A stretch of DNA of 64,000 nt, taken from NCBI GenBank assembly GCA_024231215.1, contig JAAEQR010000003.1:22660-86659 (forward strand), in the 5' to 3' direction. A program made the position numbers and the translations under genes. Below, piece by piece: positions 34,371 to 58,046 of the stretch. The stretch's first letter is position 1. Each line of letters begins with the position of its first letter. Origin of the DNA: PVC group bacterium. GTDB lineage: Bacteria; Omnitrophota; Gorgyraeia; B26-G9. The notes below the pieces were generated by a model. The model was not told the DNA's origin. It was given only the letters and a program-made list of their open reading frames with translations, and made no database searches.

Positions 34371-34406
34371 CCTTGACAGAAGTATATACCTATGGTATAC
34401 TTTTGA
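34371..34406 (+). promoter_or_regulatory. family promoter cassette, copy A: CCTTGACA, 13-nt spacer, ATGGTATACTTT
   Basis: The -35 TTGACA is at 34373-34378 and the extended -10 TGGTATACT at 34394-34402. This is the same cassette as copies B-E. Confidence 0.7.
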
Positions 34407-34457
34407 GTCTTTTTATTTTACCTAATAAAAATATATAAAAAAACAAGGAGATTTGTT

Positions 34458-37400
34458 ATGATTTCAGTATTAAGTCGTAATTTTTTCTTTAGAACAACCG
34501 CAATTATTTTAATTCAAGCATTTTTATTAATAGACATATCGTGGGCCTGTGGTGGGAGGCTTAATGATATTGATGACAGTAAGGTTTTTGAAGATAACTA
34601 CCTTGCTCCTTCCTTAATTATTAATCACTCTGACTTTTCAAGTTATTTTTCTAGTCCAGAAGATATTACTGCGAATCAATTCAGTAGTTTAAGTTCTGCA
34701 GAAATCGAAACCTTAACATATAAACTTGGCCTAACTCTTACCAATGAAAAGCAAGCAGCAAGAGAGATTGAAGAGATTAAGAAAGAACAATTTAAAATAA
34801 TGGATCAGTTTAGTGAAGGGTTAGAGAACAAGGAGCAACGTGAAAAAGCTTTGAATCAGGTAGTAAGAGATACCAATAAAGCGATTGATACTTTAAGGGC
34901 TGATTTTGTTGTGCAGGAGAGGGCAAAAGCTGAGTTAAAAATTAAAGCAGAAGAGTTGAAAATAGAAGCAGAAATTGCAAAGCTAAAATTAGGCAAAGAG
35001 AGAAGAGAAAACTTTGCGAAAGAAGCTCAGCAGGCATATGATCAGGAAATCGCCAAGCTTATTAAAGAAATCAAAGATGCCGCGAAATCAAAAAAAAGAA
35101 AGGCAGAGGAAGAGTATAAGGAACGTGTTAGCAAAATTGAGGAATGTGTTAGCAAAATTAAGGAGGGACTGCTTGAAGGAATATACATATCTGATTCGCT
35201 GGCTCAGGATATTGAAAAAATCAAGCAGGATACAAATGCCAGGATCCAAAAGATAGCTGCGGATATGCGTACTGAGAAGGGCTTTTTAAGCGATACAGTC
35301 AGGGGTATTATTATTGGCGTGTTTAAAATCGCCTGGTATTGGCCAAAAGGTAAGATAGCTGTTTTAAAGATTGAATTGAGCACTCATGAAGGTTATGATC
35401 TTAGCAAGTCTCGTAGTAGATTTAAGGCAGAAGTTAAGGAAATTAATAAATCTGCCAAGGCAGAGATAGAAGCGGTTAGGGACGGAAAAGATAAAAGGAC
35501 ACATAAACTTAAAGAAGAGCTTGATCAGGCTGGTTTAAATATTGAAAAAGATAAAACGAGGCTGGAACAGCTGGAATCAGATAAGAAAAAACAGCCGGAA
35601 ACAATTAGACAAGAAGTAGAAAACGCAATAAAAGAAGCTCAGAAAGATGCAGCTTTAAAAATCCTTAGCGGTCTTCAAGGTGATGAATATGTAGAACTCA
35701 GGCTGAAGGCTTTAGAAACTGTTTTGCCGCTGGTTAAATTATACGAAGACCGCCAGTCAGAAGGCCAGATGGACATGAGAATTGAAAGTAGGGAGGAGTC
35801 CATTGCCGCTTTATTTTTACGCGCGTATCGGGAAGGGCTTAGCGCTATTTCGATTACCGATGCTAAGCAATTACCTTCTCCTGAGGCGGCTAAGGCACAG
35901 CAGATTGTGAACAGACATATCAAGCGTTCTCGAAAGAAAAATGAAGATAAAAGAAAACCGCTGAAATATATTCCGGGAATCGAATTAGTCGTGTCTCTGG
36001 ACGGAGAGAAAGTTCCGGTAATTATCTATCTGCCGGAAAATTCACGTAACTTGGCGAACGATAAGACTGTTCAGGATTTGCTGGCGCGTAGAAGACCGTT
36101 TATGTTACAGGAACTCGCCCATATTTTATACGTATATAACGGAAAGATTGCTTTAGCCGATGCTCATAAATCTCTAAAAGCAGCGCAGATATTTTTTGAA
36201 CGCATGGCGGAATTTGTAATTAAAGGCAGGATCCCGTTGCGGTCCGTATTAGGGGTCGTATATTATGAAGGAACAAAGCAAAAATCTGATGAGCCGGACA
36301 GTCCGGAGAAACAGAAGCTGATGGAGTATATCGCCCGGCTTTGCGTACACCATCCGGTTTATAAACAGAGTGAGCTTTTCTTTCTGCCGGGAACTAATTT
36401 CAGCGGTAGTGTAGATCTGGAAAAGGAAAATATGCTCGGCAGCGGAGCGGATCGTCATCCGCATGAAACGAGTTATCGAGATAGGATTTTAAAGGCAGTA
36501 AATTATAAATCGGGATTATGGGAGAAGATTGTTTATGAATATGAGGGGTTTTTAAAAAACGTTTATATTTGGGGTTTAATGATTACGGCAGGTGTAACGA
36601 TTGTTGGGACACATTCACTTATTTTGGCCGGACTTTTTGCGGTGATGTTCTATTATTTGATTGCGACATATCCTGGATCTAAAAAAAGTGCATTAAAACA
36701 ACAGGTGCAAGTAATTCCCCAGGCAGATATTGCGTCAGAGGAAATGATGAAATACAAAGATTGGAAATTTGATCCGGCTAAAATTCCTCAACCCAAACCA
36801 GAAAGCGAAAAGAGTGCTTCTAAATGGGGAAAAGTGATGGAAACCGCAGGAAATATTTTTGATAAACTGGATATATTAGAAAATCTTTTTTATAGAGCGA
36901 CAGCCGGGACTAAGTATTTTGCCGGCAGTTTGAGAGAGCATTTAAATAAAAATAAGATCACAAATAACTTTTTCAGAAACGATTTGAAGCCCTGGCAAAA
37001 ATGGACTTTCTTTATTTCCAGTTTGACAATAAGCGGAGTATTGGCCGGTTGGTTGGCCGGCAGTGCATGGCTCGGAATTAAAATAGGGGCATTAGTCTGG
37101 GGTATTGCAATAGCGTTAAAGATTTTTGTGTACATAACCGATTGGGATATGGTGCTTTTACTTTTTGGATTTGCTGGTAGTGGGATAGCCGGATGGTTCT
37201 TGGGAAAAGACTACCCGTGGCAAGGAGCTTTTATTGGTCTTACCGGGTGGACGGGTTTTTTAAATAGGAAAGGAATAATATCCTTTTTTAGAGACAGAAT
37301 AAGAAAAGAGATTGATTTTTATAAACGTTTTAGGATGCTTGGGCCCAAGGCTGTTTTTATCCGAAAGACTCTGAAATTACAGCAGGATATGGCTAAGGGA

Positions 37401-38723
37401 ATTGTATATGTGAATATGGTGGGAAAATCGTTTGGCCTGAGAAAAATAGAGGTTGTGAATGTTTTGGCTAAACATGGTTTTGAATATGTAAAGATACAAG
37501 ATGCCAGCACATTGGTATTTGCCAAAAAGGACGTGATGAGAAGGATCGGAGCGGAATTTTTGAAAACAGCTTTAGAAAAATCCGGCACTTCCTGGGAGAA
37601 GATGACCGAGACTTTAAATAAGATCACAGAACATTTTGAAAAAATGCTGGTCGAGGTAACGCTGAGCACAGGGAACGGCAGGACACGTAAAATGTTTATC
37701 CCGGATCCGAGAGAAATTGCCGATGATCAGGTTATGTATAAGCTTTACCGGATTATCGCCATGTACAAGGCACAGGGATTAGTTTTGGAAAATCCCCAAA
37801 CCCGTCTGGTGGTTGATGTAAAAGGAGCGGACGGACAAGTCAGACCAGTTACAGCAAACGAATTGGCCTTAGTTATGAATAAATATTTTGACATTGTAGT
37901 ACCCATGCCGGAGGAGGGAAGTACGCCGGTGAAATCCAGGATTAGTCAGGGGGAGGTAAGGATACTGGAAGCTACCGGACAGCTTAATGAACTTTGGGAA
38001 CAAGGGGTTAAATCTTTAGTTTCGATCAACCTTGGTTCGCAGATCAGAGTGATTGTTGCGGAATTGCTCAAAGATGAAAAAATCGGAACAATTCGGGTAA
38101 CCTCTTATCCGACAGAATTAGGGCGTGACCTGATTGATTTTAGCTCCGAGGCCGGGAAATCGGTAGAAAGTTTGATCAGTGATCAGGCAATATTGGAGGC
38201 GGCGGAAGAGATGGGCTTACTGGAAACGATTGCGCGAGAGTTTAATATGGATAAGGAGAGCGTAACCCCTGAGCATATCGGACTGATCGCTGCCGGGCGA
38301 AATCCTTTTAATCAGGAGCAAGAGTTATACCAGCCTGTAGAGGTTAAAAAGTCGACGATGCATATGGGCAGTAAATATTTTGGCGGAGACACCGGGTCTA
38401 AGCTTGAGCGATTAGAGGCTGTGGCCCAGGAGTTATGGAAAAAGATAGATCGCAAAATAGCGGATTTTATCATCAAGCTGGATGCGGATAGAGCTGCGGA
38501 ACCGGGAAAGACCTCTTATCATCTTAGCGGAGAAACAATGACTTTGGATATCGCTAAGTTAAGAACGGAAAATTTGCGCCGGTTTCTTGAAGAGAAAAAG
38601 GCTGAGCATATCGAATTTTCCTGCGGGGAAGACCCCCTATCGGGAAACGCAATAATCGACCATGATTTAGAGCGGTCTTCTGAGATTACCGAACCTGCTT
38701 TGTTGGTTGAAATGGCGATTTAG
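34458..38723 (+). CDS. leader-family protein 1 (1421 aa): signal peptide, K/E-rich coiled-coil region, internal block of transmembrane helices, C-terminal globular region
   Basis: The leader reads …IILIQAFLLIDISWA|CGG…NYLAPSLIINH. The coiled coil spans aa ~90-420, and 6-8 hydrophobic helices lie at aa ~690-950. Confidence 0.7.
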   Translation: MISVLSRNFFFRTTAIILIQAFLLIDISWACGGRLNDIDDSKVFEDNYLAPSLIINHSDFSSYFSSPEDITANQFSSLSSAEIETLTYKLGLTLTNEKQAAREIEEIKKEQFKIMDQFSEGLENKEQREKALNQVVRDTNKAIDTLRADFVVQERAKAELKIKAEELKIEAEIAKLKLGKERRENFAKEAQQAYDQEIAKLIKEIKDAAKSKKRKAEEEYKERVSKIEECVSKIKEGLLEGIYISDSLAQDIEKIKQDTNARIQKIAADMRTEKGFLSDTVRGIIIGVFKIAWYWPKGKIAVLKIELSTHEGYDLSKSRSRFKAEVKEINKSAKAEIEAVRDGKDKRTHKLKEELDQAGLNIEKDKTRLEQLESDKKKQPETIRQEVENAIKEAQKDAALKILSGLQGDEYVELRLKALETVLPLVKLYEDRQSEGQMDMRIESREESIAALFLRAYREGLSAISITDAKQLPSPEAAKAQQIVNRHIKRSRKKNEDKRKPLKYIPGIELVVSLDGEKVPVIIYLPENSRNLANDKTVQDLLARRRPFMLQELAHILYVYNGKIALADAHKSLKAAQIFFERMAEFVIKGRIPLRSVLGVVYYEGTKQKSDEPDSPEKQKLMEYIARLCVHHPVYKQSELFFLPGTNFSGSVDLEKENMLGSGADRHPHETSYRDRILKAVNYKSGLWEKIVYEYEGFLKNVYIWGLMITAGVTIVGTHSLILAGLFAVMFYYLIATYPGSKKSALKQQVQVIPQADIASEEMMKYKDWKFDPAKIPQPKPESEKSASKWGKVMETAGNIFDKLDILENLFYRATAGTKYFAGSLREHLNKNKITNNFFRNDLKPWQKWTFFISSLTISGVLAGWLAGSAWLGIKIGALVWGIAIALKIFVYITDWDMVLLLFGFAGSGIAGWFLGKDYPWQGAFIGLTGWTGFLNRKGIISFFRDRIRKEIDFYKRFRMLGPKAVFIRKTLKLQQDMAKGIVYVNMVGKSFGLRKIEVVNVLAKHGFEYVKIQDASTLVFAKKDVMRRIGAEFLKTALEKSGTSWEKMTETLNKITEHFEKMLVEVTLSTGNGRTRKMFIPDPREIADDQVMYKLYRIIAMYKAQGLVLENPQTRLVVDVKGADGQVRPVTANELALVMNKYFDIVVPMPEEGSTPVKSRISQGEVRILEATGQLNELWEQGVKSLVSINLGSQIRVIVAELLKDEKIGTIRVTSYPTELGRDLIDFSSEAGKSVESLISDQAILEAAEEMGLLETIAREFNMDKESVTPEHIGLIAAGRNPFNQEQELYQPVEVKKSTMHMGSKYFGGDTGSKLERLEAVAQELWKKIDRKIADFIIKLDADRAAEPGKTSYHLSGETMTLDIAKLRTENLRRFLEEKKAEHIEFSCGEDPLSGNAIIDHDLERSSEITEPALLVEMAI

Positions 38724-38770: not shown

Positions 38771-38806
38771 CCTTGACGAAGTATGCCTTATATGGTATAC
38801 TTTACT
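38771..38806 (+). promoter_or_regulatory. family promoter cassette, copy B: CCTTGACG, 13-nt spacer, ATATGGTATACTTTAC
   Basis: The -35 is at 38773-38778 and the -10 TATACT at 38797-38802. Confidence 0.7.
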
Positions 38807-38861
38807 ACCTATTTTTAAATAATCCAAACTATAATAATAACCTATTGGGAGAAAACAAGTT

Positions 38862-41800
38862 ATGGGTATCAATAAGAAATACCTATATCTAAGAATTATT
38901 GCATGTATTCTAATACAGGCGGTTTTGTTTGGTAACAGCGGCTTGATCGGAGTAGTGCGCGCAGAAAACTTCCTGTCGCCGGTTTTAGAAATAAATAATA
39001 AGCTGGTTAAGACTTCGTTTGAAACTCCTCAGGTAAAAAGTCGTCGTTTTGTTCATAATCTGGATGATTTATCAAAACTTTCCCGCCGCAAAAGAGATGA
39101 TCTCGAAATAAATGTTCTTAAAAGAATTAGAAATATTAATCTCAAAGGTTTTAATTTTTTATCAAGGGAGGAGCAGGAGAATTTCATTTTTGTTGATTTG
39201 GACTTTGCGGAGTATGTGTTAAAGACTATCTTTACCGATAAGATTAAAGAGGACATGTCTCAGAAGAACGTATCTTATGAAATCATAACAAGGATTATAG
39301 TAGACATGTTTATTCTTTTAAACAAGGTGTTAGAACAACAAGAAGGACAGGATAATACCTATATCGCATGCACTAATTATACTTTTTCTAAAGATAGAAA
39401 AGGACAGACATATGTACTCACGGTTAATTTTGAGAAAAAAGGAGTGGAAGCTAAAATATCAAAATTTATAGCCGAAGAAATTGATGCAGAAATGCCGAAT
39501 ATTGTCTCAGTGTCCGGGCCGATAGAAAAAATCACTGGAAATAAAAGTATAGATGTTAGTTTTTACGGGGTTTCAAAAAATAACAAAGTGCTTACCCCAT
39601 CGGAAATAACCCGAGCAGTGAAGAAGCTGCCGCCGAACGCAGAGAATATAGATATTTCGGAATTAAGAATTGCGCATAAAAGATTACTTAATTTGGCCAG
39701 AGATCGTTACGAAAAACAGGATATTTTAAAAGAAATAACCCCAGCCATAGAGAGGAAAATAAAAACAGGTATTGTTGCGGAAGGGACATCTTCTTTTACC
39801 CCGATTACTGAGAAGGCTTTTGTGGGAAAGATTATTTGCGCGGAAGTGGTAGAAAAAGAGAAAAAGCCGACATATCCTTTAGTTTCATATTATTCGGAAA
39901 CATTGAGGAAAGATCTGAGATTATTAGATAATGCTATAAATACGGCTATGTATAAGTATGAAGGTATAGATATTAATACGGTTCATCATTTTTTGCAGGA
40001 TGCCTTTGCGTTTGCAAGACATGATTCTCGGGAAACACGCAAGGCTCCGACAGCTCAATTTTTATCGCATCTTATGGATGAGCGGAAGGCAGTGCGGGTT
40101 AGAATTCGAAAGGAATTATTGGAGATTATTACATATACGCCGATGTTAAATAAAGACAATGAGCCAAGAGAGATTTCGGAAATCATGGAGGAAGAGCTAG
40201 CTGAGTTAGCGGAACTGCAAGATTACGAAGACAATATGTATATCTGGGGAGAACTGAACAGGCTTAATCAAGAGGATTTGCTATGGGATAACATCATGTC
40301 TCAAGCAAATGAAATTGTGGGTAATATATATCAATATATAGAAGGAGTGGACCCTGAACCTAAAAATGAAAAAGAGCAGATGGCTTTAGATGCGATTGAA
40401 AATGCGAGGAAGGCAGTCCCAACAGATACTCAAATTGGGTCTATGGTCGATACTGTATTACAAGATCTGCCGCGGCAGTTATTTGCCTGGTTAAGAAAAT
40501 ATGATTGTTCTTTACATGAGGCGTTTTTTCGGTCTATGCAACCTATTGTAGACCAGTTAGTTCAAGCTCAAGAACATACGTCGCAAATGAAAGGAGGGCT
40601 TTCTTTAAATCTCCATACCGAACTTTGTACTTTTGTGGATACTGTATTGTTGGAACTGGGAGAGTATGAATCGCGGCATGTAGTGGTACATAATGACTCG
40701 GAGAAGGAGCCATTTATATTATATGTGCCGGGAGACCTAGGAGGGCCGGAGGAATATTTGCGTTTTCGGCGTCTTTATCCGAATATGGTAGGGATTGTAG
40801 TTAAAGAAGGAGCTAAACATTATGCGGTAATGGCCGGAGATCACGGATTCCCGGTGATTAATAAAATTGATTTAATTGAAATGAGCGAAGGAAAATTGCC
40901 GTTAGAGCTGGTGTTAAAAAAGAAAACTAATGGAATTATGCGTATTAGCAGGGGAGGGAAAGCGTTTTTATATATAAACCCTTCATTGAGGGATACCCTT
41001 GAGGCGGAAACTATTATAAAAACAGCGCAGGCAATTAAAATATTGTGTGAAGCTAATATAGATTTAGAAGGAGAAGATGGGAAATTAAAGACGTATGATG
41101 GAGTAGAAGCGCCTGAGATAATGATGAATTTGGATATTGCCGAAGATGCGGAAGACTTGCCGAGCCGGGTAATACGGAAAATAGGTCTTTATCGTACAGA
41201 ATATGAGTATGAACGTCATGGAGAGTTAACAGAAGAAGCATGGTATAAAATTTTTAAGAAAATTGTTAAAGATTCAGAGGGCGATTTTATCGCTGTACGT
41301 TTACCGGATAGAAAAGTATCCGGAGAAGGTGGGGATATAAAAAATCCTAAAGCTTTTGGAAAAAGTAATCTTGAAGGACTTGATTTTTTGCTTGATGAAA
41401 GAGCTAAGGGCAGGCGAATCTCAACGATAATATTAAGGGCCCTTATGAGAGTATATGCAGAAGACGGAGTCGTAGGTGCTCTTTTTCCCATGGTTTCGCA
41501 AGAAAGAGCCGAAGGAATAATCGACTTTGTCGAAGAAATAAAAGAGAATTTAATCTTTGAACAAAAAAATAAAAATAAGCGGGAAGCTTTGGAAGAGGCG
41601 TTAGACAGCTTTTCCGTGGGAGCGATGTTTGAAACTCCTCAGGCTTTTGAATTTAAAAAAGAGCTTATGGAGATTTTTGATTTTGTAAGTTGGGGGAGTA
41701 ATGACTGGAAGATGGCTTCTTCCGGGAAGTCAAGAGGTGCTCAGGGAACGACCAAAGAATTGATTTCATTTACGCCTGAGGTTGTAAAAACCGCATTAGC

Positions 41801-42191
41801 GGCAGGTAAGATGAGCAGGAAGAAGGAAGTACCTTTTTCTATCTGTGGTAAGCTTGCGTCTACCCCTGAATTCATTCTATTTTCACTATATGCAAAGTCG
41901 TTGTCGCTTTTTGATATCCGACTAAGCGTTGGTAAAGATTCTATAGCGTACGTCAAAGAATTTATTCGCCATGTCGATACTAGACGCATTAAAGATATCT
42001 TTAATGATTATCGAAAAGGTTATGATCAGAATAAATTTGATGAGAAAATAGCAGATGAAATAGAAAACATAGTGCTTTCTATGGGAGAATTAGCCAAGCC
42101 TTTTCTACAGGGACAAGTTAAGATGTCGTTACAGAAGAAAAGGGGGCAGGCATCGAAGGCTCCTGTGTTAGTGCATGAGTATGCAATATAA
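38862..42191 (+). CDS. leader-family protein 2 (1109 aa): signal peptide plus a C-terminal divergent PEP-utilizing-enzyme module (phosphohistidine swivel domain and PEP-binding TIM barrel)
   Basis: The leader reads …ILIQAVLF…VVRA|ENFLSPVLEINN. The His-domain reads MVGIVVKEGAKHYAVMAGDHGFPVI. The TIM barrel carries GLYRTEYEY, FPMVSQ, FETPQA and DFVSWGSNDW… and CGKLASTPEF. Confidence 0.65.
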   Translation: MGINKKYLYLRIIACILIQAVLFGNSGLIGVVRAENFLSPVLEINNKLVKTSFETPQVKSRRFVHNLDDLSKLSRRKRDDLEINVLKRIRNINLKGFNFLSREEQENFIFVDLDFAEYVLKTIFTDKIKEDMSQKNVSYEIITRIIVDMFILLNKVLEQQEGQDNTYIACTNYTFSKDRKGQTYVLTVNFEKKGVEAKISKFIAEEIDAEMPNIVSVSGPIEKITGNKSIDVSFYGVSKNNKVLTPSEITRAVKKLPPNAENIDISELRIAHKRLLNLARDRYEKQDILKEITPAIERKIKTGIVAEGTSSFTPITEKAFVGKIICAEVVEKEKKPTYPLVSYYSETLRKDLRLLDNAINTAMYKYEGIDINTVHHFLQDAFAFARHDSRETRKAPTAQFLSHLMDERKAVRVRIRKELLEIITYTPMLNKDNEPREISEIMEEELAELAELQDYEDNMYIWGELNRLNQEDLLWDNIMSQANEIVGNIYQYIEGVDPEPKNEKEQMALDAIENARKAVPTDTQIGSMVDTVLQDLPRQLFAWLRKYDCSLHEAFFRSMQPIVDQLVQAQEHTSQMKGGLSLNLHTELCTFVDTVLLELGEYESRHVVVHNDSEKEPFILYVPGDLGGPEEYLRFRRLYPNMVGIVVKEGAKHYAVMAGDHGFPVINKIDLIEMSEGKLPLELVLKKKTNGIMRISRGGKAFLYINPSLRDTLEAETIIKTAQAIKILCEANIDLEGEDGKLKTYDGVEAPEIMMNLDIAEDAEDLPSRVIRKIGLYRTEYEYERHGELTEEAWYKIFKKIVKDSEGDFIAVRLPDRKVSGEGGDIKNPKAFGKSNLEGLDFLLDERAKGRRISTIILRALMRVYAEDGVVGALFPMVSQERAEGIIDFVEEIKENLIFEQKNKNKREALEEALDSFSVGAMFETPQAFEFKKELMEIFDFVSWGSNDWKMASSGKSRGAQGTTKELISFTPEVVKTALAAGKMSRKKEVPFSICGKLASTPEFILFSLYAKSLSLFDIRLSVGKDSIAYVKEFIRHVDTRRIKDIFNDYRKGYDQNKFDEKIADEIENIVLSMGELAKPFLQGQVKMSLQKKRGQASKAPVLVHEYAI

Positions 42192-42202
42192 AAGAGGATA
42201 TT

Positions 42203-46349: not shown

Positions 46350-46363
46350 AGGAAGGTAAAAAT

Positions 46364-52400: not shown

Positions 52401-55019
52401 ATTATTATCCGGTTAATAAATATTCCGATAAGTGCAATCGGATTACTTATACAGTATCCGGCAAAATTGTTGATTAAATTCATGGTAAAAATAGTCATCA
52501 CTCATCGTCAGATACAAGAATCAGCACGGATTGAGCAGCTGATTATTGCCGCAAGGAAAAATATCGAAGAGGCTGTTAGTTTGTATTCTAAGGGTGATAA
52601 ACCAACCGCGGAAGTAAAAATAGATGCAGCTTTAGATACTTTTGGAGATGCAAAACAGACGCAGGCTAAAATTTTGCAGGCTTTTAAAGATAATGGTTTT
52701 CTTACGGAAGATGACACAGAGTTGAATAGCTTGTTTGATCAGTTGGCACAAAGCACAGATTATGCGCAAAAAGAATCTGTGAAGGCGGAGATTGTACAAA
52801 AGATAAGCATGAATCAGCCGGATCCTCTTCCGAGCGTAGACGTAATACTTGAAACAATAATTCCGGCGGCAGAGCAAGCATATATTGATAAGAATTGGGC
52901 TAGTTTGGAAGCTGCCCTGGATGTCTTTTTGAATTTTTATGAAAAGGTAAAAGAGCCTAGGGAGGAAGAGATTGTATTAAATGGTTTTGCGGGTGCTTTT
53001 CGTGAACATGATATATGGAGCGATACCCTGGATGTATTATTTGAAAAATTAAGAAGTCCGGGGCAGAATTATGAGCAGATTAGAAATGATATCAAAAGTT
53101 ACATTCAGAAAAAAATGAGTGGCACAACTCCGGAAGTGCCTGATTTAGATCAGGCACTTACTGCAATAGCAGAAGCGACGGGGTTATATGCGGATAAAAA
53201 ATATGAAGAAGCCGAAGCTGAATTACTTAAAGTATTGCAGTTTTATGCATTAAATACAGTAAGCGAACGAGAGCGTACAATTGTCATGGATAATATTAAG
53301 CCTTTGTTGCCTACAGAGGATAAGCAGTTAGAAGCGTTTTTTAGATCAATTGCCGATCAAAATACTCCGGATGAAGATAAACAAAGTTTGATAGCTGCGA
53401 TTATAGAAAAAATAACTATTTATCAGAAGTCCCAAGTTGATCCGACTCCGGAAATGCCGGATTTGAATAAAATACAGAGGGATGTGAATAAGGTCGTTAA
53501 TTTATATAAAGAAAAGCAAGATAATACTGCGGAAGAAATATTAGGATCGATACTGAATCTGGCAATAACTCACAAAGATAATGCAGAGGTTATAACTCCA
53601 ATATCCAATATGCTGGTGACTGCGGGATTATGGAATGATGCGGATAAGCAGTTGTTTTCGGAATTATTGCAGAAAAATGACTTGCAGGGGATAAAAGATA
53701 AGATTTCTGCAATCGTATTAAAACATAGAAATGAAATAAGATCAGCAACCGAATATATTAATACTGTAAAAGTTTTTTGTTACGAAAGAAAGTTTAATTG
53801 GGAAGTTGCGTCACAGTCGATTGATTCAGCCTTAACTCTTTATGAGGAAAATGCATGGGTGAGAGATTCAATAGCAGTAGCTTTAACCATGGAAAAAGCA
53901 TTGCTGGATAATGTTACCCGAAATGAATTAATTGGGAAGTTTAATAATGCGATAAAAAATAATGAAAATACAACCGGGATAAAGGGTGAGATAAAAGCGG
54001 CTATAAAAACTTATGCAACAGCGCAGTTAGAGAAAGTAGAGAAGGTAAAGCAAGTTGCGGCGAAAGATAAAGTTAGCAGTTTGACAATAATTATGCGTAA
54101 CAGCTATTACGCGAATGATCTGGATCTTCCGATACAGGCACGGGATGATTTGTTAGCAACATATGTTAAGGTTATGCCATTGCGGAGCTTAATAAAAGAA
54201 CAAATTATAGAAGCTGATTTAATGACAGAAGAGGATGTGAATAGATTATTCGGAGCTTTGGATAGGGTTTCTTCTGATGATGAAATAAAGGATGCACTAG
54301 ACGCTATCGAGAATAATATGTTAACCCATGTGTTGGAGCAACGGCTTGATAAGGCGCAGACCACTATTATACTTATAGCTGATCGTTATGAGGTGGCGGT
54401 AAAAGATGAAGACTATAAGAAAGCAGAGGATCTTTTGAATTATCCTTTGGCTGTGGCGTTAGATTGTAATGAGCATGCAGAGGCTATCTTGACGGAACTG
54501 GAAAAACAGAAATTAGTAACTACTAATGAAGTTAAAGGACACTTCCGGGACTATGTGAATTCCAGGGATGCCGGGTATCTCGATCTTTTAAAACGTAAAA
54601 TAACCGAAGCACAAAAAGCTCTTAAACAGATAGAAGAGCCGAAACAGCCGGATGATGGACAGCAGAATGATATTATTCAGTTGAAAATGAAAGTGGTAAA
54701 CTTTATTGCTGAGGCATGTGGTAATTATTATGTAACTGAAGATTTTGACGCGGCAGGAAAATCTCTTAATGAAATATTGAATGCATATATGGAACATCCT
54801 GAAATACGTGATTTTATCACTGAAATCATGGAGAAGAATGACTTGATGAACGATACTATTAAGGGGTTATTTAAAGACTTAGGAGTCTTGTCCGATAATA
54901 ATATTTCCGAACAACAGATTGATAGTATAAGAGGAAAGATACAGGATGCTGTAAAAGCAAATGTAAAAGCAGTAAAAAGAAATAAAAAGATGCTGGAATT
55001 AATTGGCATGGCGATTTAA
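49476..55019 (+). CDS. leader-family protein 6 (~1847 aa): signal peptide plus a giant K/E-rich α-helical protein built of ~105-aa degenerate repeat modules
   Basis: The leader reads …FVLIQAFLLMNVSGAFA|GLA…TTLAPNIAISH. The ATG at 49476 follows an AAGAAGGAG RBS; the ORF track's GTG at 49449 is less likely. A recurring (D/E)-x-x-LF-x-x-L signature occurs roughly every 100 aa, and P-(E/D)-x-P-D-L module boundaries fall near nt 52818, 53130 and 53448. Confidence 0.7.
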   Translation: MLSTKNNQKIGFKLISFVLIQAFLLMNVSGAFAGLAVAQNSVENQTTLAPNIAISHNALQGMFMVEQAPVIKVPESLIDVDYFMKTVRRAYLTRKVNAVKKAEDLETAMLGIVEKYTSADTDKVRSAIITKVRKAGKELPIYKEVEKMLTKKSLHMEMIKHVLKKKQLGEKVFTANSAGELLKTFGVDEETQQQAINDAKQTIGLGVKLTRKELKNILTQIPSKEKIPSLAIEYLDNKYKIKEWWGVQLFKGIWMCKIGQMSWPVLGVKIVRFVKENDLLSKFWGKFVAWWEGSFKSFIINYIKGIKFQYSQGSGYNFETARNWLDTLLRLYIDKSDREDAEIDQAQTREYIFDQMRKKGIVPEEYKLLFASMVSKQPVPENIEGFAKTASEKRLTNEDIKKLTIMLDKVIDRAEIAISQYELSGNSRTDEKAWDMLDKRFEVYLSVVEKPLITVFDMCSKYRIISDMVFMMFKNSGLLLENDKYLFSRIGDKNIFEDVKIQIRERIEDNRKILSGKLDKNDYTITTAGNNLKIILQYILMIKQTAFADGKVDLYEAKNWFGKLFDFYKQSTPESRRDIIKRLKRAELILSDKDEALFSELLKSKPGVTEKIIIAMTKNVKTKRAGESKRQKLIKQILSDKYRYVSKINAQVSDETVLKSVDKKELIGVIDRFVRAQNLIMEADKVYLAAATPEEYAVAGEILEDVLSIYKLTKYRMERNIIFKMLIEARLVTREHKGLFDLLYAGSATAVEDIKDAVTAQVQQRKKDLEESFIEIREAVNKSVELYEKAAELSKEQIDEFLNEKMAKVISDFTQEYSFEQVLESIRRMETGEKIDFLVDLYEDDKARPDQKKRIFEILKEVGLLDGFWVNVHNFFSKLGLTKRFAAIKERLKETILGKVYSVLGEKKLKLGGQAIVYAKAAQALDPALKIYVKEPLARQFITERLEAANLIDNSIQMKAMFWFLAGAKPFEPTNIIIRLINIPISAIGLLIQYPAKLLIKFMVKIVITHRQIQESARIEQLIIAARKNIEEAVSLYSKGDKPTAEVKIDAALDTFGDAKQTQAKILQAFKDNGFLTEDDTELNSLFDQLAQSTDYAQKESVKAEIVQKISMNQPDPLPSVDVILETIIPAAEQAYIDKNWASLEAALDVFLNFYEKVKEPREEEIVLNGFAGAFREHDIWSDTLDVLFEKLRSPGQNYEQIRNDIKSYIQKKMSGTTPEVPDLDQALTAIAEATGLYADKKYEEAEAELLKVLQFYALNTVSERERTIVMDNIKPLLPTEDKQLEAFFRSIADQNTPDEDKQSLIAAIIEKITIYQKSQVDPTPEMPDLNKIQRDVNKVVNLYKEKQDNTAEEILGSILNLAITHKDNAEVITPISNMLVTAGLWNDADKQLFSELLQKNDLQGIKDKISAIVLKHRNEIRSATEYINTVKVFCYERKFNWEVASQSIDSALTLYEENAWVRDSIAVALTMEKALLDNVTRNELIGKFNNAIKNNENTTGIKGEIKAAIKTYATAQLEKVEKVKQVAAKDKVSSLTIIMRNSYYANDLDLPIQARDDLLATYVKVMPLRSLIKEQIIEADLMTEEDVNRLFGALDRVSSDDEIKDALDAIENNMLTHVLEQRLDKAQTTIILIADRYEVAVKDEDYKKAEDLLNYPLAVALDCNEHAEAILTELEKQKLVTTNEVKGHFRDYVNSRDAGYLDLLKRKITEAQKALKQIEEPKQPDDGQQNDIIQLKMKVVNFIAEACGNYYVTEDFDAAGKSLNEILNAYMEHPEIRDFITEIMEKNDLMNDTIKGLFKDLGVLSDNNISEQQIDSIRGKIQDAVKANVKAVKRNKKMLELIGMAI
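52500..54900 (+). repeat. in-frame degenerate tandem repeats of ~312-318 nt (104-106 codons) inside the protein 6 gene
   Basis: Three modules are aligned, starting with QPDPLPSVDVILETI, TPEVPDLDQALTAI and TPEMPDLNKIQRDV. Further diverged copies carry the …ExxLFxxL… motif. Confidence 0.5.
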
Positions 55020-55049
55020 TTGGTGAATGGTTGATCGTGAATAGTTTTT

Positions 55050-55072
55050 GGGCCGGTTGAGACCGGCCCAAA
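55050..55072. other. GC-rich hairpin (GGGCCGGT-TGAG-ACCGGCCC) between protein 6 and protein 7
   Basis: A perfect 8-bp stem with a 4-nt loop. The T-run is upstream (TTTTTG), not downstream, so it is ambiguous as a terminator. Confidence 0.4.
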
Positions 55073-55088
55073 CTGATATATAATTAAT

Positions 55089-56639
55089 ATGAAAATAATT
55101 ACAAGTATAATCATACAGATATTTTTATTTACTACCTTGTGCTTTGGCGCGGGAGCGAATAGCTATCTTTCCCCTGAGATATCCATGGCTAGTGAAGGAG
55201 TAAAGGACAGGATATCTCAGGTATCCGAGCAAGATAATACTGCGTCTATTTTTCCTACCTATGATGTGATTAAAGAACTCAAGAAAGAAAATTATATTTC
55301 AGGTAAAATTGGCCAGCATGATTTTGCCGGAACAGTAAGACGACGGAAAGGTTTTTTATTTATCCATAATGTATATAAGCCTCAGAGCAAGAAAGATATC
55401 CGATGCTGGGGCGGTGTTTTATTTAAGGTTCCGTATGAAATAATACCTTCTGAAGACGAGGATAAAGGTGTGTTTTTGAAAATGCGTATAAAAGATGTAT
55501 CTAAAAACGGAAAGTTTTCTCTTACCTTGCAATGGCCGGAATTAAAGAATGATAGTTATGTGCGGCTTGTCTATGATACGGATAAAACAGGGGAGATCAC
55601 TATAAACTTATCTAAACTGGTTAAGGACAGAGGATTGCCGGCTGGGGATCAGTTTTATGTACAGGTATTGCCGGTTGGTCATAATGCTAAAGTAGAAATA
55701 GATGAATTTGTTTTAGAAAATATTCCGGTGCGGCAGGAAGAAAATGCTGTGTATAACCGGCATATATACCCTATATATAAAGAAGGGGAATATCCAATTA
55801 ACTTAACTTCGTATCAGGCGGAACAAATTCGCGTGTTTTTGTCTGCAATTTACTCGATTTCAGAAGAGAGCAAAAGGAAAGATGTTTCCAAAGTAGAAAT
55901 AGGTGGTGAGTTGTTTGATTTGCTTAATCAGATAATGGAAGAGCAGGAGAGTTTATGTCTTTTAATGGAATTGGGATATGAAGAGCCGCTGTTGAAAATA
56001 TTAACAGTATTAAAAAAGAAGTTTTTGCGTATGTCTAACATAGCAGTAAAGGTTGAAAAGCTAAAAATAGAAATGCAGAGTAATTCTCGAATGTTAAGAG
56101 TAAGAAGACTGGAAAAAGAGTGGTCTTATATTAATAATCAGTTCGAAGAAAAAAATGCGCAGTACACTGAGACTTTACGCCAGCATCGGGTATTTGGTTC
56201 ACCTCATCCGGGAAGCTATGATGAGATTATGTCCTTGTTTGAAATAAAGAATCATTTGTTTGGAGAATTGAATCGGACAAAAGATGAGTTATTTCGTAAG
56301 GTGGTTGAATACTATAATCATTGTCGTAACTTTTGTAAATTTAAAAGGACCTTAAAGCAGAAGATGGAAGAGATAAATACCATATTAAACAGCAAAGAGG
56401 AGGCTAATATATATTCGAATCCGGAATTATTAGCAAAAGAATTTAAAAAATATTCGTCTTTGATGGGCTCTCCTTCGAAGGCGAGCCGCCTGACTGCCGA
56501 AGATAAAAAATCTGTTATAAAGATGGTTATGTCTTATATTTCTTCGCAATCCGATAGACGCGAGGAAAATATCACTTCGGTGAAATCAATTAAAGAGATT
56601 TCTCGTCCTGCTTTATCTTTCGTGGAATCAGCAATATAG
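55089..56639 (+). CDS. leader-family protein 7 (516 aa), function unknown
   Basis: The leader reads MKIITSIIIQIFLFTTLCFGAGA|NSYLSPEISMAS. Confidence 0.65.
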   Translation: MKIITSIIIQIFLFTTLCFGAGANSYLSPEISMASEGVKDRISQVSEQDNTASIFPTYDVIKELKKENYISGKIGQHDFAGTVRRRKGFLFIHNVYKPQSKKDIRCWGGVLFKVPYEIIPSEDEDKGVFLKMRIKDVSKNGKFSLTLQWPELKNDSYVRLVYDTDKTGEITINLSKLVKDRGLPAGDQFYVQVLPVGHNAKVEIDEFVLENIPVRQEENAVYNRHIYPIYKEGEYPINLTSYQAEQIRVFLSAIYSISEESKRKDVSKVEIGGELFDLLNQIMEEQESLCLLMELGYEEPLLKILTVLKKKFLRMSNIAVKVEKLKIEMQSNSRMLRVRRLEKEWSYINNQFEEKNAQYTETLRQHRVFGSPHPGSYDEIMSLFEIKNHLFGELNRTKDELFRKVVEYYNHCRNFCKFKRTLKQKMEEINTILNSKEEANIYSNPELLAKEFKKYSSLMGSPSKASRLTAEDKKSVIKMVMSYISSQSDRREENITSVKSIKEISRPALSFVESAI

Positions 56640-56667
56640 TTAATATTTATAGGAAAAAAATTAAATT

Positions 56668-57936
56668 ATGAGTAGTAGATTTGGAGTAATATTTAAAATC
56701 ATTGTAATAGTACTTGTGCAGGCATTTTTGACGTTAGATCTTGCTTGGGCTGCGCAGGGGAATCTGCGTTCGTTTCAAGCGGATGATACTATTTCTCCTT
56801 ATATCCAGGTCGAAAATATTTCTTTGCAGGCCGGATTTTCTGTTTTATTTACTAAGGTTGCTGTGAAAGATATTGCTCAGATTGAAACTATTGAGAGTAT
56901 AGAGCAAAACACTACTAACTCATCCATCCTATCTCAAATCAGAAATTGGATGGAAAGATTTTTTCTAAAAATCACATTTTCTTTAGGACAGATATTGTTA
57001 GGGTGGACTGGACTTGTTTGGGCGCAGGAGCATATAGAAGAATATAACGGCCCTTATTTTGATAACGTATGGTCGTATTGGTGGTATCGGACATGTAATT
57101 TTTTTACAAATCCAGTTGTTTTTAAGACTGTATTGGTTATCTCAGGTGTAGCAATGGTTTTTTTAGTCGCGAGTTTTGTTGTAGCTAACCTGATGACAAG
57201 TAAAAAAGATAGAAGCAATCTGGGAATGGTGATATTGATTGGTTTGATTGGTTATTTGGTTCTAAGCAGTGATATAGGCAATAAAGTACAAGACTTTTTC
57301 TTTCCCGATGTTATGCCTGATATGAAGACTTCGACACAAAAGAGTATTATGGAGCACAAATTAGGACTCCCTGGAGTAGGCATACAGACAAATGCGGTGC
57401 ATTCGGAAGTAATACAAGAATTCACCTCAAAAGGAAAAACAAGGAAAAATGTAATTATAAACGGAAAGATAGTAGGAGATAATATTCCTCAGAAGAGTTT
57501 TACACTTGATCAGAATGAGATTGTCTTGGCTGTATTGTTCATGCTTGCAGGGATTTTTTTAATTGATCATGCAATAAACAAAAATAAAAGAGGTCAGAAA
57601 ACATTAATAGATATATCTTTTGCTTTCTGGGGCCCGATAATAGAGGAGATAATTGAGATATTGAAAGCGTCATCTCAATCTGCAGGCCAGCTGGTAACGA
57701 TTAATGAATCAGACATAGCTGATTTACCATCAGAGACTGAGACTGTGTTGGATCAGTCAGGGGTGTTTTTCTCGGATAAGAATTCTGCCCAGGGAGAGCT
57801 TCAGCTTTATATGGAACAATTCGGGGCGCTTCTTTATCCTACAAACTGGGATGATTTTCGAAAAGCAGAACAGGTGCATCGTAACCGGCTGAATAATTGT
57901 AGTACATCATATGTTTTGCTGGAACAGGCTGTTTAG
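56668..57936 (+). CDS. leader-family protein 8 (422 aa): signal peptide plus an internal transmembrane-helix block
   Basis: The leader reads …IVIVLVQAFLTLDLAWA|AQG…ISPYIQVENIS. Hydrophobic helices lie at aa ~150-200 and ~285-305. Confidence 0.65.
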   Translation: MSSRFGVIFKIIVIVLVQAFLTLDLAWAAQGNLRSFQADDTISPYIQVENISLQAGFSVLFTKVAVKDIAQIETIESIEQNTTNSSILSQIRNWMERFFLKITFSLGQILLGWTGLVWAQEHIEEYNGPYFDNVWSYWWYRTCNFFTNPVVFKTVLVISGVAMVFLVASFVVANLMTSKKDRSNLGMVILIGLIGYLVLSSDIGNKVQDFFFPDVMPDMKTSTQKSIMEHKLGLPGVGIQTNAVHSEVIQEFTSKGKTRKNVIINGKIVGDNIPQKSFTLDQNEIVLAVLFMLAGIFLIDHAINKNKRGQKTLIDISFAFWGPIIEEIIEILKASSQSAGQLVTINESDIADLPSETETVLDQSGVFFSDKNSAQGELQLYMEQFGALLYPTNWDDFRKAEQVHRNRLNNCSTSYVLLEQAV

Positions 57937-58011
57937 CTCCATAACTTTACGCCTTCCAATAAATATCAATTGCAACCAATTGTAAATAAATAGCTTACAG
58001 AAATAGACCTG

Positions 58012-58046
58012 CCTTGACAAGCCTGCCTATATATGGTATACTTTAA
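58012..58046 (+). promoter_or_regulatory. family promoter cassette, copy E: CCTTGACA, 13-nt spacer, ATATGGTATACTTTAA
   Basis: The -35 is at 58014-58019 and the -10 TATACT at 58037-58042. Confidence 0.7.

What the first reader, a model, noticed from the sequence alone, without database searches (positions are those of the whole stretch)
34371..58046. Five near-identical copies of a 35-nt promoter cassette, one at the head of each transcription unit in the block
The five copies are at 34371-34406, 38771-38806, 44378-44413, 49381-49413 and 58012-58046. They read CCTTGAC(A/G)-13 nt-ATATGGTATACTTTAC; copy D has TTGAAA as its -35 hexamer. The conserved stretch, about 16 nt including the TG-extended -10 and +1 region, is longer than promoter function alone requires. 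GGTATACC and GTATAC are palindromic. The family therefore probably expanded by duplicating promoter plus leader together, and may be co-regulated through a shared operator overlapping the -10. Members with no copy of their own (42203, 46364, 55089, 56668) sit 11-50 nt after the previous stop codon, which gives operons P2-P3, P4-P5 and P6-P7-P8.
Basis: seen in the sequence. Interest (0 to 1): 0.6.

Follow-up and report, generated by a model that had tools for sequence, protein, structure and literature searches.

The report
Shared promoter of an Omnitrophota gene family
The repeated 35-nt element is a real, strongly conserved promoter module that heads the transcription units of tandem arrays encoding a large, undescribed family of signal-bearing proteins in Omnitrophota-like bacteria. 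It is found with the same family in other genomes, so it probably marks a co-regulated gene set rather than being chance or a recent copy.

Summary
The 12-mer TATGGTATACTT occurs six times exactly in the window (about 0.5 expected). A sixth lies at 32957-33001 and a degenerate seventh at 15174-15217.

Each copy is a sigma-70-type promoter: TTGnnA, 17 nt, TRTG-type extended -10, TATACT. Each lies 33-72 nt upstream of a gene of one family. The conserved block is longer than reported. TTA and a T4-7 tract follow at about +2 to +10.

The 11 downstream genes share an N-terminal signal-like helix (ILIQAFL..AWA), an LSPxLxI motif and a C-terminal ..EQAI end, around unrelated enzyme cores. The family has at least 368 representatives, annotated PVC/Omnitrophota where named, and always sits in tandem arrays.

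In 10 other metagenomic contigs the same module heads family units (23 sites in all). The spacer is not conserved. Non-family extended -10 promoters in the same DNA differ: TATACT 19/23 versus 1/24; T-tract 21/23 versus 1/24.

The motif is not exclusive. It also precedes csp, a lipoprotein phosphatase gene and toxin-antitoxin genes.

My reading is a family-linked promoter under purifying selection. How it is controlled (operator, T-tract-dependent initiation, or neither) is not resolved.

The parts
34371..34414 (+). Cassette A: CC TTGACA, 17 nt, (CTATGG) TATACT TTT, then T5 at 34410-34414. Lies 56 nt upstream of the ATG at 34458. The spacer holds the inverted repeat TATACC-tat-GGTATA.
   Evidence: The orthologous promoter in metagenome contig L121 keeps -38 to about +20, while the sequence further upstream has diverged.
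38771..38816 (+). Cassette B: CC TTGACG, 17 nt, (ATATGG) TATACT TTAC, then T5 at 38812-38816. Heads the two-gene unit 38862-42191 and 42203-44296.
44378..44419 (+). Cassette C: CC TTGACA, 17 nt, (ATATGG) TATACT TTAC, then T4 at 44416-44419. Heads 44481-46349 and 46364-49183. The leader contains the GC hairpin GGGCCG..CGGCCC.
49379..49420 (+). Cassette D: TTGAAA, 17 nt, (ATATGG) TATACT TTAC, then T4 at 49417-49420. Heads 49476-55019, 55089-56639 and 56668-57936.
   Evidence: The likely start codon is the ATG at 49476 (the representative protein P0005 is 1847 aa).
58012..58056 (+). Cassette E: CC TTGACA, 17 nt, (ATATGG) TATACT TTAA, then T5 at 58052-58056. Heads the TPR protein gene that ends at 60730.
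32957..33001 (+). Lies 33 nt upstream of 33021-34271.
15174..15217 (+). Degenerate cassette G: TTGCAA, 17 nt, (CTAGTG) TATACT TTAA, then T5. Lies 47 nt upstream of the 11th family gene.
33021..34271 (+). Family gene 1. The core is PAD_porph-like (agmatine/peptidyl-arginine deiminase fold). Has LLSPRLSL near the N-terminus and ends in LIEMAI.
34458..38723 (+). Family gene 2, 1421 aa, no Pfam domain. N-terminus AIILIQAFLLIDISWA..YLAPSLIIN; C-terminus LVEMAI.
38862..44296 (+). Family genes 3 and 4: 38862-42191 (PEP-utilizers_C core) and 42203-44296 (DHH-like core). They are 11 nt apart and have no promoter of their own between them.
44481..49183 (+). Family genes 5 and 6: 44481-46349 (no domain) and 46364-49183 (patatin core), 14 nt apart. 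Their first 81 nt are 74% identical.
49476..57936 (+). Family genes 7-9: 49476-55019, 55089-56639 and 56668-57936. The gaps are 69 nt (with the hairpin 55050-55071) and 28 nt.
58097..60730 (+). Family gene 10, TPR-containing. The start codon is uncertain: GTG at 58097 or TTG at 58118. Ends in LVEQGV.
15252..16244 (+). Has a weak N-terminal match with MLSPQIQIS and ends in LVEYAI.
49220..49247 (+). The only clear intrinsic terminator inside the block: a 12-bp stem followed by a T-run, after gene 6.

Best explanation
Each copy is a sigma-70-type promoter of the TRTG/extended -10 class. Its layout is: an A-rich stretch near -50, TTGnnA at -35, a 17-nt spacer of free sequence, TATGG, TATACT, TTA, and a T4-7 tract at about +2 to +10. 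It is kept by purifying selection at the head of the transcription units of one gene family.

That family is a large, PVC/Omnitrophota-restricted set of proteins. Its members have a conserved N-terminal signal-like helix plus an LSPxLxI motif and a C-terminal ..EQAI end, around unrelated enzyme cores. The genes are arranged in tandem arrays.

The module gives these units a common, probably strong and coordinated, transcription signal, in other words a regulon signature.

What is shown: sequence anatomy, position, over-representation, association with the family, and conservation across genomes while the spacer varies.

What is inferred:
- The housekeeping sigma factor reads the module, because the -35, the spacing and the TG are ordinary and are shared with non-family promoters.
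- Transcription starts at the purine 6-7 nt after TATACT.
- The family-specific positions (C at -8, TTA at -6 to -4, the T-tract) carry an extra control step at or just after initiation.

For that extra step my rough split is:
- about 40%: a DNA-binding regulator on the -17 to +12 block, which contains the quasi-palindrome TAtgGTATACttTA;
- about 30%: an intrinsic effect of the T-tract, as in UTP-sensitive reiterative transcription or promoter escape;
- about 30%: a special sigma factor or an RNA-level role of the 5' U-tract.
For: - Over-representation: six exact TATGGTATACTT against about 0.5 expected.
- Location: all copies are intergenic, on the + strand, 33-72 nt from starts of family genes. 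Genes without a copy follow the previous stop by 11-69 nt.
- Family: shared N-termini; shared C-termini; 368 representatives at E<=1e-3; 101 of the top 148 end in [ASG][IV]. The source is annotated 'PVC group bacterium' and relatives 'Candidatus Omnitrophota'.
- Other genomes: the ortholog L121 keeps -38 to +20. Ten metagenome loci hold tandem family arrays whose head genes carry the same module. The 23-site profile reads TTG..aA, N11, TATGG TATACT TTa, then tTTTtt.
- Specificity: 19 of 30 family unit heads have TATACT, against 2 of 34 non-family heads, and none of the 34 has TGGTATACT. Among extended -10 promoters in non-coding DNA: TATACT 19/23 vs 1/24 (p=2e-8); T-tract 21/23 vs 1/24 (p=4e-10); TTA 15/23 vs 3/24 (p=3e-4). 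Spacer identity is 0.35 against 0.83 for the core.
- Quasi-palindrome: TANNGTATACNNTA matches 5 times against 0.03 expected, all at family promoters.
- TRTG is a known strength element of sigma-A promoters (PMC6570832).
- T-tracts at +2 to +3 define the reiterative-transcription promoters pyrBI (AATTTG), codBA (ATTTTTTG) and upp-uraA (GATTTTTTTTG) (PMC7039003).
Against: - There are no transcript data, so start sites, strength and co-expression are all inferred.
- The module is not exclusive to the family. In the window, csp has TTGACA-17-TATACT at about 512-546, and a lipoprotein phosphatase gene has ATATGATATACTTTAT on the minus strand at about 15065-15079.
- In L131 a PilZ gene and a 1118-aa non-family gene have TATACT boxes.
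- In the scan of 185,579 genomes, TTGAC-N15-TGGTATACTTTA hit eight loci from seven Omnitrophota genomes (plus one locus from the related phylum Auribacterota). All were upstream of non-family genes, mostly toxin-antitoxin genes, and there were many Clostridia hits.
- The non-family control set is small (24-34 promoters). It was picked by a simple consensus score and contains no ribosomal or other classic high-expression operons.
- About a third of family units with gaps of 70 nt or more lack the module.
- No regulator, sigma factor or conserved neighbour was linked to the arrays.
- The palindrome is only 10 of 14, and its mismatches are exactly the bases a promoter needs.
Confidence: 0.7

Rival explanations
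1. This is the generic strong promoter of the lineage. The full motif is simply the optimal sigma-70 site in Omnitrophota-like bacteria. The family genes carry it because they are highly expressed, and there is no family-specific control.
For: - The same motif is found upstream of csp and a lipoprotein phosphatase gene in the window.
- It is found upstream of toxin-antitoxin and other genes in eight loci from seven Omnitrophota genomes (plus one Auribacterota locus), and in very many Clostridia.
- TGG-extended -10 boxes occur at non-family promoters: 15083, 17802 and 21272 in the window, and in L127, L098 and L105.
- TRTG plus a consensus -35 and -10 is a recognised recipe for strength.
Against: - In the same contigs, non-family extended -10 promoters use TAAAAT, TATATT or TATAAT rather than TATACT (1/24 vs 19/23), and they lack the T-tract (1/24 vs 21/23).
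- C at -8 is not a position where sigma-70 consensus gains strength (my own knowledge of sigma-70/-10 contacts).
- The genome-contig hits were selected by the motif itself, so they say nothing about its frequency.
Confidence: 0.2
2. This is an operator of a dedicated repressor or activator. A dimeric DNA-binding protein recognises TAnnGTATACnnTA overlapping the -10 and switches the whole family on or off together, as BpaB, BpuR and EbfC do at the Borrelia erp promoter/operator.
For: - The quasi-palindrome is present at 5 window sites against 0.03 expected, and only at family promoters.
- Two of the family-specific bases, C-8 (mirror of G-13) and TA at -5/-4 (mirror of TA at -17/-16), are exactly those that make the box symmetric.
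- There is a precedent of conserved promoter plus operator plus leader peptide on diverse paralogs (PMC10016077).
Against: - No candidate regulator is conserved next to the arrays.
- The symmetry is 10 of 14.
- The T-tract has no upstream mirror image, because the spacer is unconserved, so an operator alone does not explain the whole block.
Confidence: 0.3
3. Control lies in the initially transcribed region. The conserved R-C-U(4-7) start makes RNA polymerase slip (reiterative transcription) or stall in a UTP-dependent way, tying expression of the family to the pyrimidine nucleotide supply.
For: - A T4-7 run begins 8-10 nt after the hexamer, at about +2 to +4, in 17 of 21 sites that have a run (sequences, counted by eye). 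A purine lies at the expected start.
- Examples: ACTTTTTT (L122), GATTTT (window D), GTTTTTT (L130).
- The layout matches codBA and upp-uraA (PMC7039003).
Against: - Known cases control pyrimidine genes, whereas the function of these genes is unknown.
- Two or three non-U bases, often G:C pairs, precede the run, which should hinder slippage.
- T-runs are common in AT-rich leaders. There is no direct evidence.
Confidence: 0.2
4. The copies are relics of recent duplication or gene conversion and have no function of their own.
For: - Flank similarity within one genome: CCTTGAC in the window; TTTTTATTTGCRA in three SDBU01-contig sites plus L130.
- The 5' coding ends of neighbouring genes are alike at 74% over 81 nt.
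Against: - The same core is kept in at least 7 independent sequence sources while the spacer is at background identity.
- The proteins themselves are only about 30% identical even in the shared N-terminus.
Confidence: 0.03

Closest known systems
Borrelia burgdorferi erp (OspE/F-related, 'upstream homology box') genes
   Same: Many paralogs with diverse mature parts share a conserved promoter/operator and a conserved leader peptide. They are thought to derive from one promoter/leader/localization unit and are co-expressed (PMC10016077).
   Different: - The erp genes sit one per cp32 prophage plasmid, not in chromosomal tandem arrays.
- Their operators lie upstream of the promoter and have known binders (BpaB, BpuR, EbfC).
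- They encode lipoproteins with no shared C-terminal tag.
- Here the conserved block is the -10 to +12 region itself, and no binder is known.
TRTG ('-16 region') / extended -10 sigma-A promoters of Firmicutes
   Same: T-R-T-G immediately upstream of the -10, together with a 17-nt spacer and a TTGACA-like -35 (PMC6570832). This accounts for the invariant TATGG.
   Different: - The organism is a PVC/Omnitrophota-type bacterium with outer-membrane proteins.
- TRTG does not explain the fixed C at -8, the TTA or the T-tract, nor the link to one gene family.
hrp-box promoters of the HrpL regulon (Pseudomonas syringae, Dickeya)
   Same: One promoter box at the head of every transcription unit of a set of otherwise unrelated exported proteins. 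The box can be used to list the regulon (PMC2957411, PMC3879358).
   Different: The hrp box is an ECF-sigma site (GGAACC / CCACNNA, from my own knowledge) and bears no resemblance to TTGACA / TATACT. Here the box looks like a housekeeping promoter.
UTP-sensitive reiterative-transcription promoters (E. coli pyrBI, codBA, upp-uraA)
   Same: A homopolymeric T-tract starting 2-3 nt after a purine start site (PMC7039003).
   Different: Those promoters drive pyrimidine synthesis or salvage genes and are single cases, not a family-wide module. Slippage at these cassettes is untested.

Membership tests
Sigma-70-type promoter with extended -10 (TGn) / TRTG | -35 hexamer close to TTGACA, 16-18 nt upstream of the -10 | tested here: met
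   TTGACA (three copies), TTGACG, TTGAAA, TTGCTG and TTGCAA, always with a 17-nt spacer. In the 23-site profile, TTG and the sixth-position A are conserved.
Sigma-70-type promoter with extended -10 (TGn) / TRTG | -10 hexamer TAnnnT, preceded by TG at -15/-14 and T-R at -17/-16 | tested here: met
   TATGG TATACT in six window copies. 22 of 23 family sites have TG at -15/-14; the exception is cassette G, where the TG is displaced by one position. Most have T-R before the TG.
Sigma-70-type promoter with extended -10 (TGn) / TRTG | Transcription starts 5-9 nt downstream of the -10 | not testable with these tools
   No transcript data are available. A purine lies 6-7 nt after TATACT in most sites.
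Regulon-specific promoter/operator shared by paralogs (erp/UHB type) | The same upstream element is found on paralogs that share a leader peptide but differ in the mature part | tested here: met
   7 window sites and 16 sites in other contigs. The proteins share only the N-terminal 60-70 aa and the C-terminal 6-10 aa.
Regulon-specific promoter/operator shared by paralogs (erp/UHB type) | The element is specific to the family and not the general promoter | tested here: inconclusive
   It is strongly enriched (19/23 vs 1/24; T-tract 21/23 vs 1/24). It also occurs at csp, a phosphatase gene, PilZ and toxin-antitoxin genes. No whole genome was available.
Regulon-specific promoter/operator shared by paralogs (erp/UHB type) | A DNA-binding regulator that recognises the element, and co-expression of the genes | not testable with these tools
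   No conserved regulator was found next to the arrays. There are no expression data.
Palindromic operator | Dyad symmetry across the conserved block | tested here: inconclusive
   TAtgGTATACttTA is symmetric at 10 of 14 positions. The T-tract has no mirror image.
Reiterative-transcription (UTP-sensing) promoter | A homopolymeric tract of 3 or more T beginning within a few nt of the start site | tested here: met
   A run of TTTT or longer lies within nt 6-16 after the hexamer in 21 of 23 sites. It starts at nt 8-10 in 17 of those 21 (sequences, counted by eye).
Reiterative-transcription (UTP-sensing) promoter | Non-templated U addition, and UTP-dependent output | not testable with these tools
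   This needs in vitro transcription or 5'-end sequencing.
Sigma-54 promoter (a sigma-54 activator gene lies at 29851-30852) | TGGCAC-N5-TTGCW at -24/-12 upstream of the genes | tested here: not met
   18 matches with up to 2 mismatches against 23.5 expected, and none lies in the cassette regions.
ECF/hrp-box type alternative-sigma promoter | GGAACC-N15/16-CCACNNA or another non-sigma-70 pair of boxes | tested here: not met
   The boxes are TTGnnA and TATACT at 17 nt, like the non-family promoters of the same contigs.
Structured 5' leader RNA (riboswitch, thermometer, known Rfam family) | A match to a known family, or a stable conserved fold | tested here: not met
   There are no Rfam matches in the window at gathering score. 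Of 18 leaders folded, 17 have z between -1.8 and +1.8 and one has -5.3. The leaders cannot be aligned beyond the T-tract.

The most novel reading that the evidence does not exclude
The cassette is the cis-signature of a dedicated, switchable regulon. That regulon would control a previously unrecognised Omnitrophota export or effector family, defined by a conserved signal-like N-terminus (ILIQAFL..AWA, LSPxLxI) and a C-terminal ..EQAI tag. The family carries cytoplasm-type enzyme cores: patatin, DHH, PEP-utilising, methyltransferase, GGDEF, AAA, radical SAM.

The fixed C-8/TTA/T-tract block would be read either by a family-specific regulator or through UTP-dependent initiation. That would link deployment of the arsenal to contact with, or nucleotide supply from, a host or prey cell. 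The motif could then be used to list the regulon in any Omnitrophota genome.
Probability: 0.2. Interest if true: 0.8.

Novelty: new variant of a known kind. Interest (0 to 1): 0.55.

Why it matters
Omnitrophota are uncultivated, mostly ultra-small and probably host-dependent or predatory bacteria, and almost nothing is known about how they regulate genes.

- A promoter module that travels with one large, unannotated protein family across genomes gives a sequence handle on a probable regulon. It can be scanned for, mapped in metatranscriptomes, and tested in vitro with heterologous RNA polymerase.
- It also draws attention to the family itself. The family has hundreds of representatives, reaches over 6000 aa, and has conserved N- and C-terminal tags around enzyme cores similar to those reported in Omnitrophota giant proteins. 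Pfam and NCBIfam have no model for the tags. The two Omnitrophota giant-protein papers I checked do not mention the tags or the promoter.
- If instead the module proves to be the generic strong promoter, it is still a first description of the promoter consensus (TRTGG-TATACT) for this phylum.

Tried and rejected
- Exact look-ups of window proteins found nothing, although the proteins are in NCBI. I therefore could not fetch the rest of the 104-kb contig or the genome.
- The three word-indexed homology searches found almost nothing: gene 5, then two N-terminal alignments. Their one hit, P0008, gave the orthologous promoter L121. The index-free HMMER search was what revealed the family.
It returned neither the source genome nor any family gene. 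A more specific pattern that included the T-tract would have been better.
- No family member was found in viral contigs.
- No Rfam family matched and there were no sigma-54 sites.
- Leader folding gave no significant shared structure. The U-tract pairs with the SD or Lys-codon A-runs in some predictions, but z-scores are near zero. I do not claim a fourU-type thermometer.
- The search for a conserved regulator next to the arrays gave little. One recurrent 551-aa secreted protein without Pfam domains appears in L122, L125 and L127 but not in the window. PilZ genes flank the arrays in L129 and L131. One sigma-70 gene in L131 is probably the housekeeping sigma.
- I rejected invertible-promoter, shufflon and mobile-element readings. 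The copies are direct, have no flanking inverted repeats, and only about 45 nt are shared.
- A literature search for the motif string returned only unrelated primers.
- I did not attempt structure prediction. Only window sequences may be submitted, and the paralogs are not homologous outside their termini, so no useful alignment could be built.

Full report
**1. The observation**

Each has a -35 hexamer (TTGACA three times, TTGACG, TTGAAA), a 17-nt spacer ending in TATGG, the hexamer TATACT, and then TTA(C/A) or TTT.

The motif is far above chance:
- ATGGTATACTTTAC with up to 2 mismatches gives 8 matches against 0.58 expected.
- TATGGTATACTT is exact six times, against 0.46 expected even with one mismatch allowed.

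A degenerate seventh copy lies at 15174-15217, upstream of 15252-16244.

Three small corrections apply:
- GGTATACC does not occur in the cassette.
- The gap before 55089 is 69 nt and holds a hairpin.
- The real start of the 49.4-kb gene is the ATG at 49476.

**2. What lies downstream**

All ten ORFs from 33021 to 60730, plus 15252-16244, belong to one family. The family is recognisable only at its ends.
- The N-terminus has basic residues, then a hydrophobic helix with a conserved glutamine (K-I-I-x-x-I-L-I-Q-A-F-L), usually D-x-A-W-A, and 10-25 residues later (T/Y)-L-(S/A)-P-x-L-x-I.
- The last residues are L-(V/I)-E-(M/Q)-A-(I/V)-stop. Neighbouring genes lack this ending.
- The cores are unrelated: PAD_porph-like, PEP-utilizers_C, DHH, patatin, TPR, or nothing recognisable.

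A profile of the N-termini finds 368 representatives at E<=1e-3 among 1.84 billion cluster representatives. Almost all match at residue 1. Lengths reach 6383 aa. 101 of the top 148 end in [ASG][IV], and those that do not are mostly short fragments.

The window's proteins are annotated 'PVC group bacterium' (MCP46485xx, a 104-kb contig). A 3711-aa relative is annotated 'Candidatus Omnitrophota'.

Cores of 59 further members include methyltransferases, GGDEF, AAA, GT1/GT4, radical SAM, HD and PGM domains. A 2026 preprint lists much the same set for Omnitrophota giant proteins. Pfam and NCBIfam have no model for the termini. The two Omnitrophota giant-protein papers I checked mention neither the tags nor a promoter motif.

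**3. The promoter in other genomes**

- A 622-bp ENA scaffold carries the ortholog of gene 2. Its upstream region aligns with cassette A from -38 to about +20 (CCTTGACA..GAGT.TATACCTATGGTAT.CTTTTG.GT.TTTT). Further upstream the two sequences have diverged.
- A metagenome scan with the peptide LIQAFL[VL][LM]D returned ten loci from five projects. All contain tandem arrays of 2-6 family genes, 47 family ORFs in total including the window's.
- The first gene of most units carries the same module. Examples are TTGAAA-17-..GTATGG TATACT TTACTACCTTTTTT (L126) and TTGCGA-17-..TCATGG TATACT TTAATACCTTTT (L131).
- The profile of 23 sites reads: a few A near -50, TTG..aA, eleven unconserved bases, TATGG TATACT TTa, three to five variable bases, then T4-7.
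- Mean pairwise identity is 0.83 in the 15-nt core and 0.35 in the spacer.
- Within one genome the surroundings of the -35 are alike: CCTTGAC in the window; TTTTTATTTGCRA in three SDBU01-contig sites plus L130; AAAATGTTGGCA in L122 and L123.

So promoters have been copied along with genes. Only the functional core survives between genomes.

**4. Is it merely the general promoter?**

Evidence that it is not:
- In the 228 kb at hand, 19 of 30 family unit heads (gap of at least 70 nt) have TATACT. Only 2 of 34 non-family heads do, and none of the 34 has TGGTATACT.
- I also listed every TGn-extended -10 box with a TT-start -35 in non-coding DNA, including seven Omnitrophota loci from the genome scan. 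I excluded the five sites by which those loci had been selected. The counts are TATACT 19/23 vs 1/24 (p=2e-8), a T-tract 21/23 vs 1/24 (p=4e-10), and TTA 15/23 vs 3/24 (p=3e-4).
- Non-family promoters do share the TGG extension: TGGTATAGT at 15083, TGGTAAAAT at 17802, TGGTATATT at 21272, TGGTATAAT in L127 and L098. TRTGG therefore looks lineage-wide, in line with the known TRTG -16 element (PMC6570832). TATACT, TTA and the T-tract are the family-linked parts.

Evidence against exclusivity:
- The csp gene has TTGACA-17-TATACT.
- A lipoprotein phosphatase gene has ATATGATATACTTTAT.
- A PilZ gene and a large non-family gene in L131 have TATACT boxes.
- The scan of 185,579 genomes for TTGAC-N15-TGGTATACTTTA hit eight loci from seven Omnitrophota genomes (plus one from the related phylum Auribacterota). 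All were upstream of non-family genes, mostly toxin-antitoxin genes, alongside a flood of Clostridia promoters.

The module is therefore strongly associated with the family but is not private to it. I could not scan a whole genome.

**5. How it most likely works**

The ordinary -35, the 17-nt spacing and the TG extension are shared with other promoters of the same contigs. This makes the housekeeping sigma factor the simplest reader. There are no sigma-54 or ECF-like boxes.

What generic promoter function does not explain is the fixed C at -8, TTA at -6 to -4, and the T-tract at about +2 to +10. Two readings fit different parts of this.

- **Operator.** C-8 mirrors G-13 and T-5/A-4 mirror T-17/A-16. 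This gives TAtgGTATACttTA, symmetric at 10 of 14 positions and found only at family promoters in the window (5 matches against 0.03 expected). That suits a dimeric regulator overlapping the -10, as at the Borrelia erp promoter/operator shared by paralogs with a common leader peptide (PMC10016077).
- **T-tract-dependent initiation.** The T-tract has no mirror image, but it is tightly placed. It starts 8-10 nt after the hexamer in 17 of 21 sites (sequences, counted by eye), after a purine and usually a C. The predicted 5' ends are ACUUUUUU, GAUUUU and GUUUUUU. This is the layout of the UTP-sensitive reiterative-transcription promoters codBA and upp-uraA (PMC7039003).

An RNA-level role is not supported. 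There is no Rfam hit, the leaders cannot be aligned, and their predicted folds are no more stable than shuffled sequence, apart from one case. No conserved regulator gene accompanies the arrays.

I therefore commit to this: a family-linked sigma-70-type promoter under purifying selection that coordinates transcription of the arrays. An extra control step at -8 to +12 is likely, and its nature is unresolved.

**6. Comparison and novelty**

- In how it works, the closest known thing is the erp/'upstream homology box' arrangement of Borrelia. The concept also resembles box-defined effector regulons such as the HrpL/hrp-box regulon.
- In its anatomy, the closest is the TRTG extended -10 promoter of Firmicutes.
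- It is not a member of the hrp-box or sigma-54 classes, since their defining boxes are absent.
- The kind of thing (a shared promoter signature on paralogs with a common signal sequence) is known. This particular module, its T-tract, its phylum and the protein family it marks are, as far as I could check, undescribed.
- I rate it a new variant of a known kind, with interest 0.55. Most of the upside lies in the family and in the chance to define a regulon in an uncultivated phylum.

Noticed in passing
window 33021-60730 and 15252-16244; loci L121-L131: The genes behind the promoters form an unannotated protein family. It is defined only by an N-terminal signal-like helix with a conserved Gln (ILIQAFL..D.AWA), an LSPxLxI motif, and a C-terminal L(I/V)EQ(A/S)I end, around unrelated, mostly cytoplasm-type enzyme cores. 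There are 368 representatives, lengths reach 6383 aa, and the genes always sit in tandem arrays. Pfam and NCBIfam have no model for the termini.
   Followed up: partly
window 49184-49216, 55020-55045, 60731-60778; L125 12354-12410, L126 17158-17230, L128 12437-12500, 15011-15045 and 16861-16885: Directly after the stop codons of many family genes come C-poor, G/A/T-rich simple repeats. Examples are GTGACAAGTTAC.., (GTAGG)n and (AAAGTTA)n. They recur across genomes and I have no explanation for them.
   Followed up: partly
window 21272-21322: The promoter of the Rex-like gene (21323-21958; CoA_binding plus Put_DNA-bind_N) is TTGACA-16-TGGTATATT. It is followed at once by the inverted repeat GTGAATAAATTCAC, which looks like a Rex operator and so suggests autoregulation.
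   Followed up: no
window 512-664: The cold-shock protein gene (665-865) has TTGACA-17-TATACT and a leader of roughly 115-120 nt. It is the clearest non-family use of the TATACT box in the window.
   Followed up: partly
window 15051-15251: This is a divergent promoter region. On the minus strand, ATATGATATACTTTAT drives a lipoprotein DSP/Tyr-phosphatase gene (ATG at 15050, lipobox LLLGC). On the plus strand lie TTGGAA-16-TGGTATAGT and the degenerate cassette G.
   Followed up: partly
window 29332-29568 (minus strand): A 78-aa ORF matches only the C-terminal end of a histidine-kinase ATPase domain (..GTGAGLAIVKKIVQMHKGTIWVES..). It sits in a 479-nt gap upstream of a sigma-54 activator gene that lacks a receiver domain. 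It is probably a gene remnant.
   Followed up: no
window 44424-44447 and 55050-55071: There are two GC-rich hairpins without T-tails. One (GGGGCCGCGCTCGGCTCGGCCC) is in the leader of gene 5. The other (GGGCCGGTTGAGACCGGCCC) is between genes 7 and 8 and overlaps a TTGAGA-16-TATAAT match that ends 4 nt before the ATG at 55089.
   Followed up: no
window 44477-44557 vs 46360-46440: The 5' ends of the adjacent genes 5 and 6 are 74% identical over 81 nt, including the ribosome-binding region. This suggests a recent tandem duplication of the 5' module without the promoter.
   Followed up: no
L127 7959-9611, L122 2-757, L125 2-277: A secreted 551-aa protein with no Pfam domain lies directly upstream of family arrays in three loci, at about 64% identity between loci. 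In L127 it is preceded by a cassette-like promoter (GAATATGG TATAAT TTTATTAC). There is no homolog in the window.
   Followed up: partly
L129 3564-3926; L131 12384-12761 and 14389-14742: Small PilZ-domain genes flank family arrays in L129 and L131; the two tested (L129 3564-3926, L131 12384-12761) hit Pfam PilZ, and the third (L131 14389-14742) looks PilZ-like by eye only. One of them has TTGACA-17-TATACT. A 2023 preprint reports pilZ genes downstream of Omnitrophota giant genes.
   Followed up: no
window 1-64000: Almost every gene is on the + strand, and GC skew is strongly positive throughout (+0.13 to +0.32 per 2 kb). This is unusually strong strand bias for a 64-kb stretch.
   Followed up: no
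window 25925-28153: A patatin-Omp85 fusion (the PlpD-like, type Vd autotransporter architecture) lies 5 kb upstream of the family block. A TraF_2-type outer-membrane barrel gene (31353-32825) lies directly upstream of the block.
   Followed up: no
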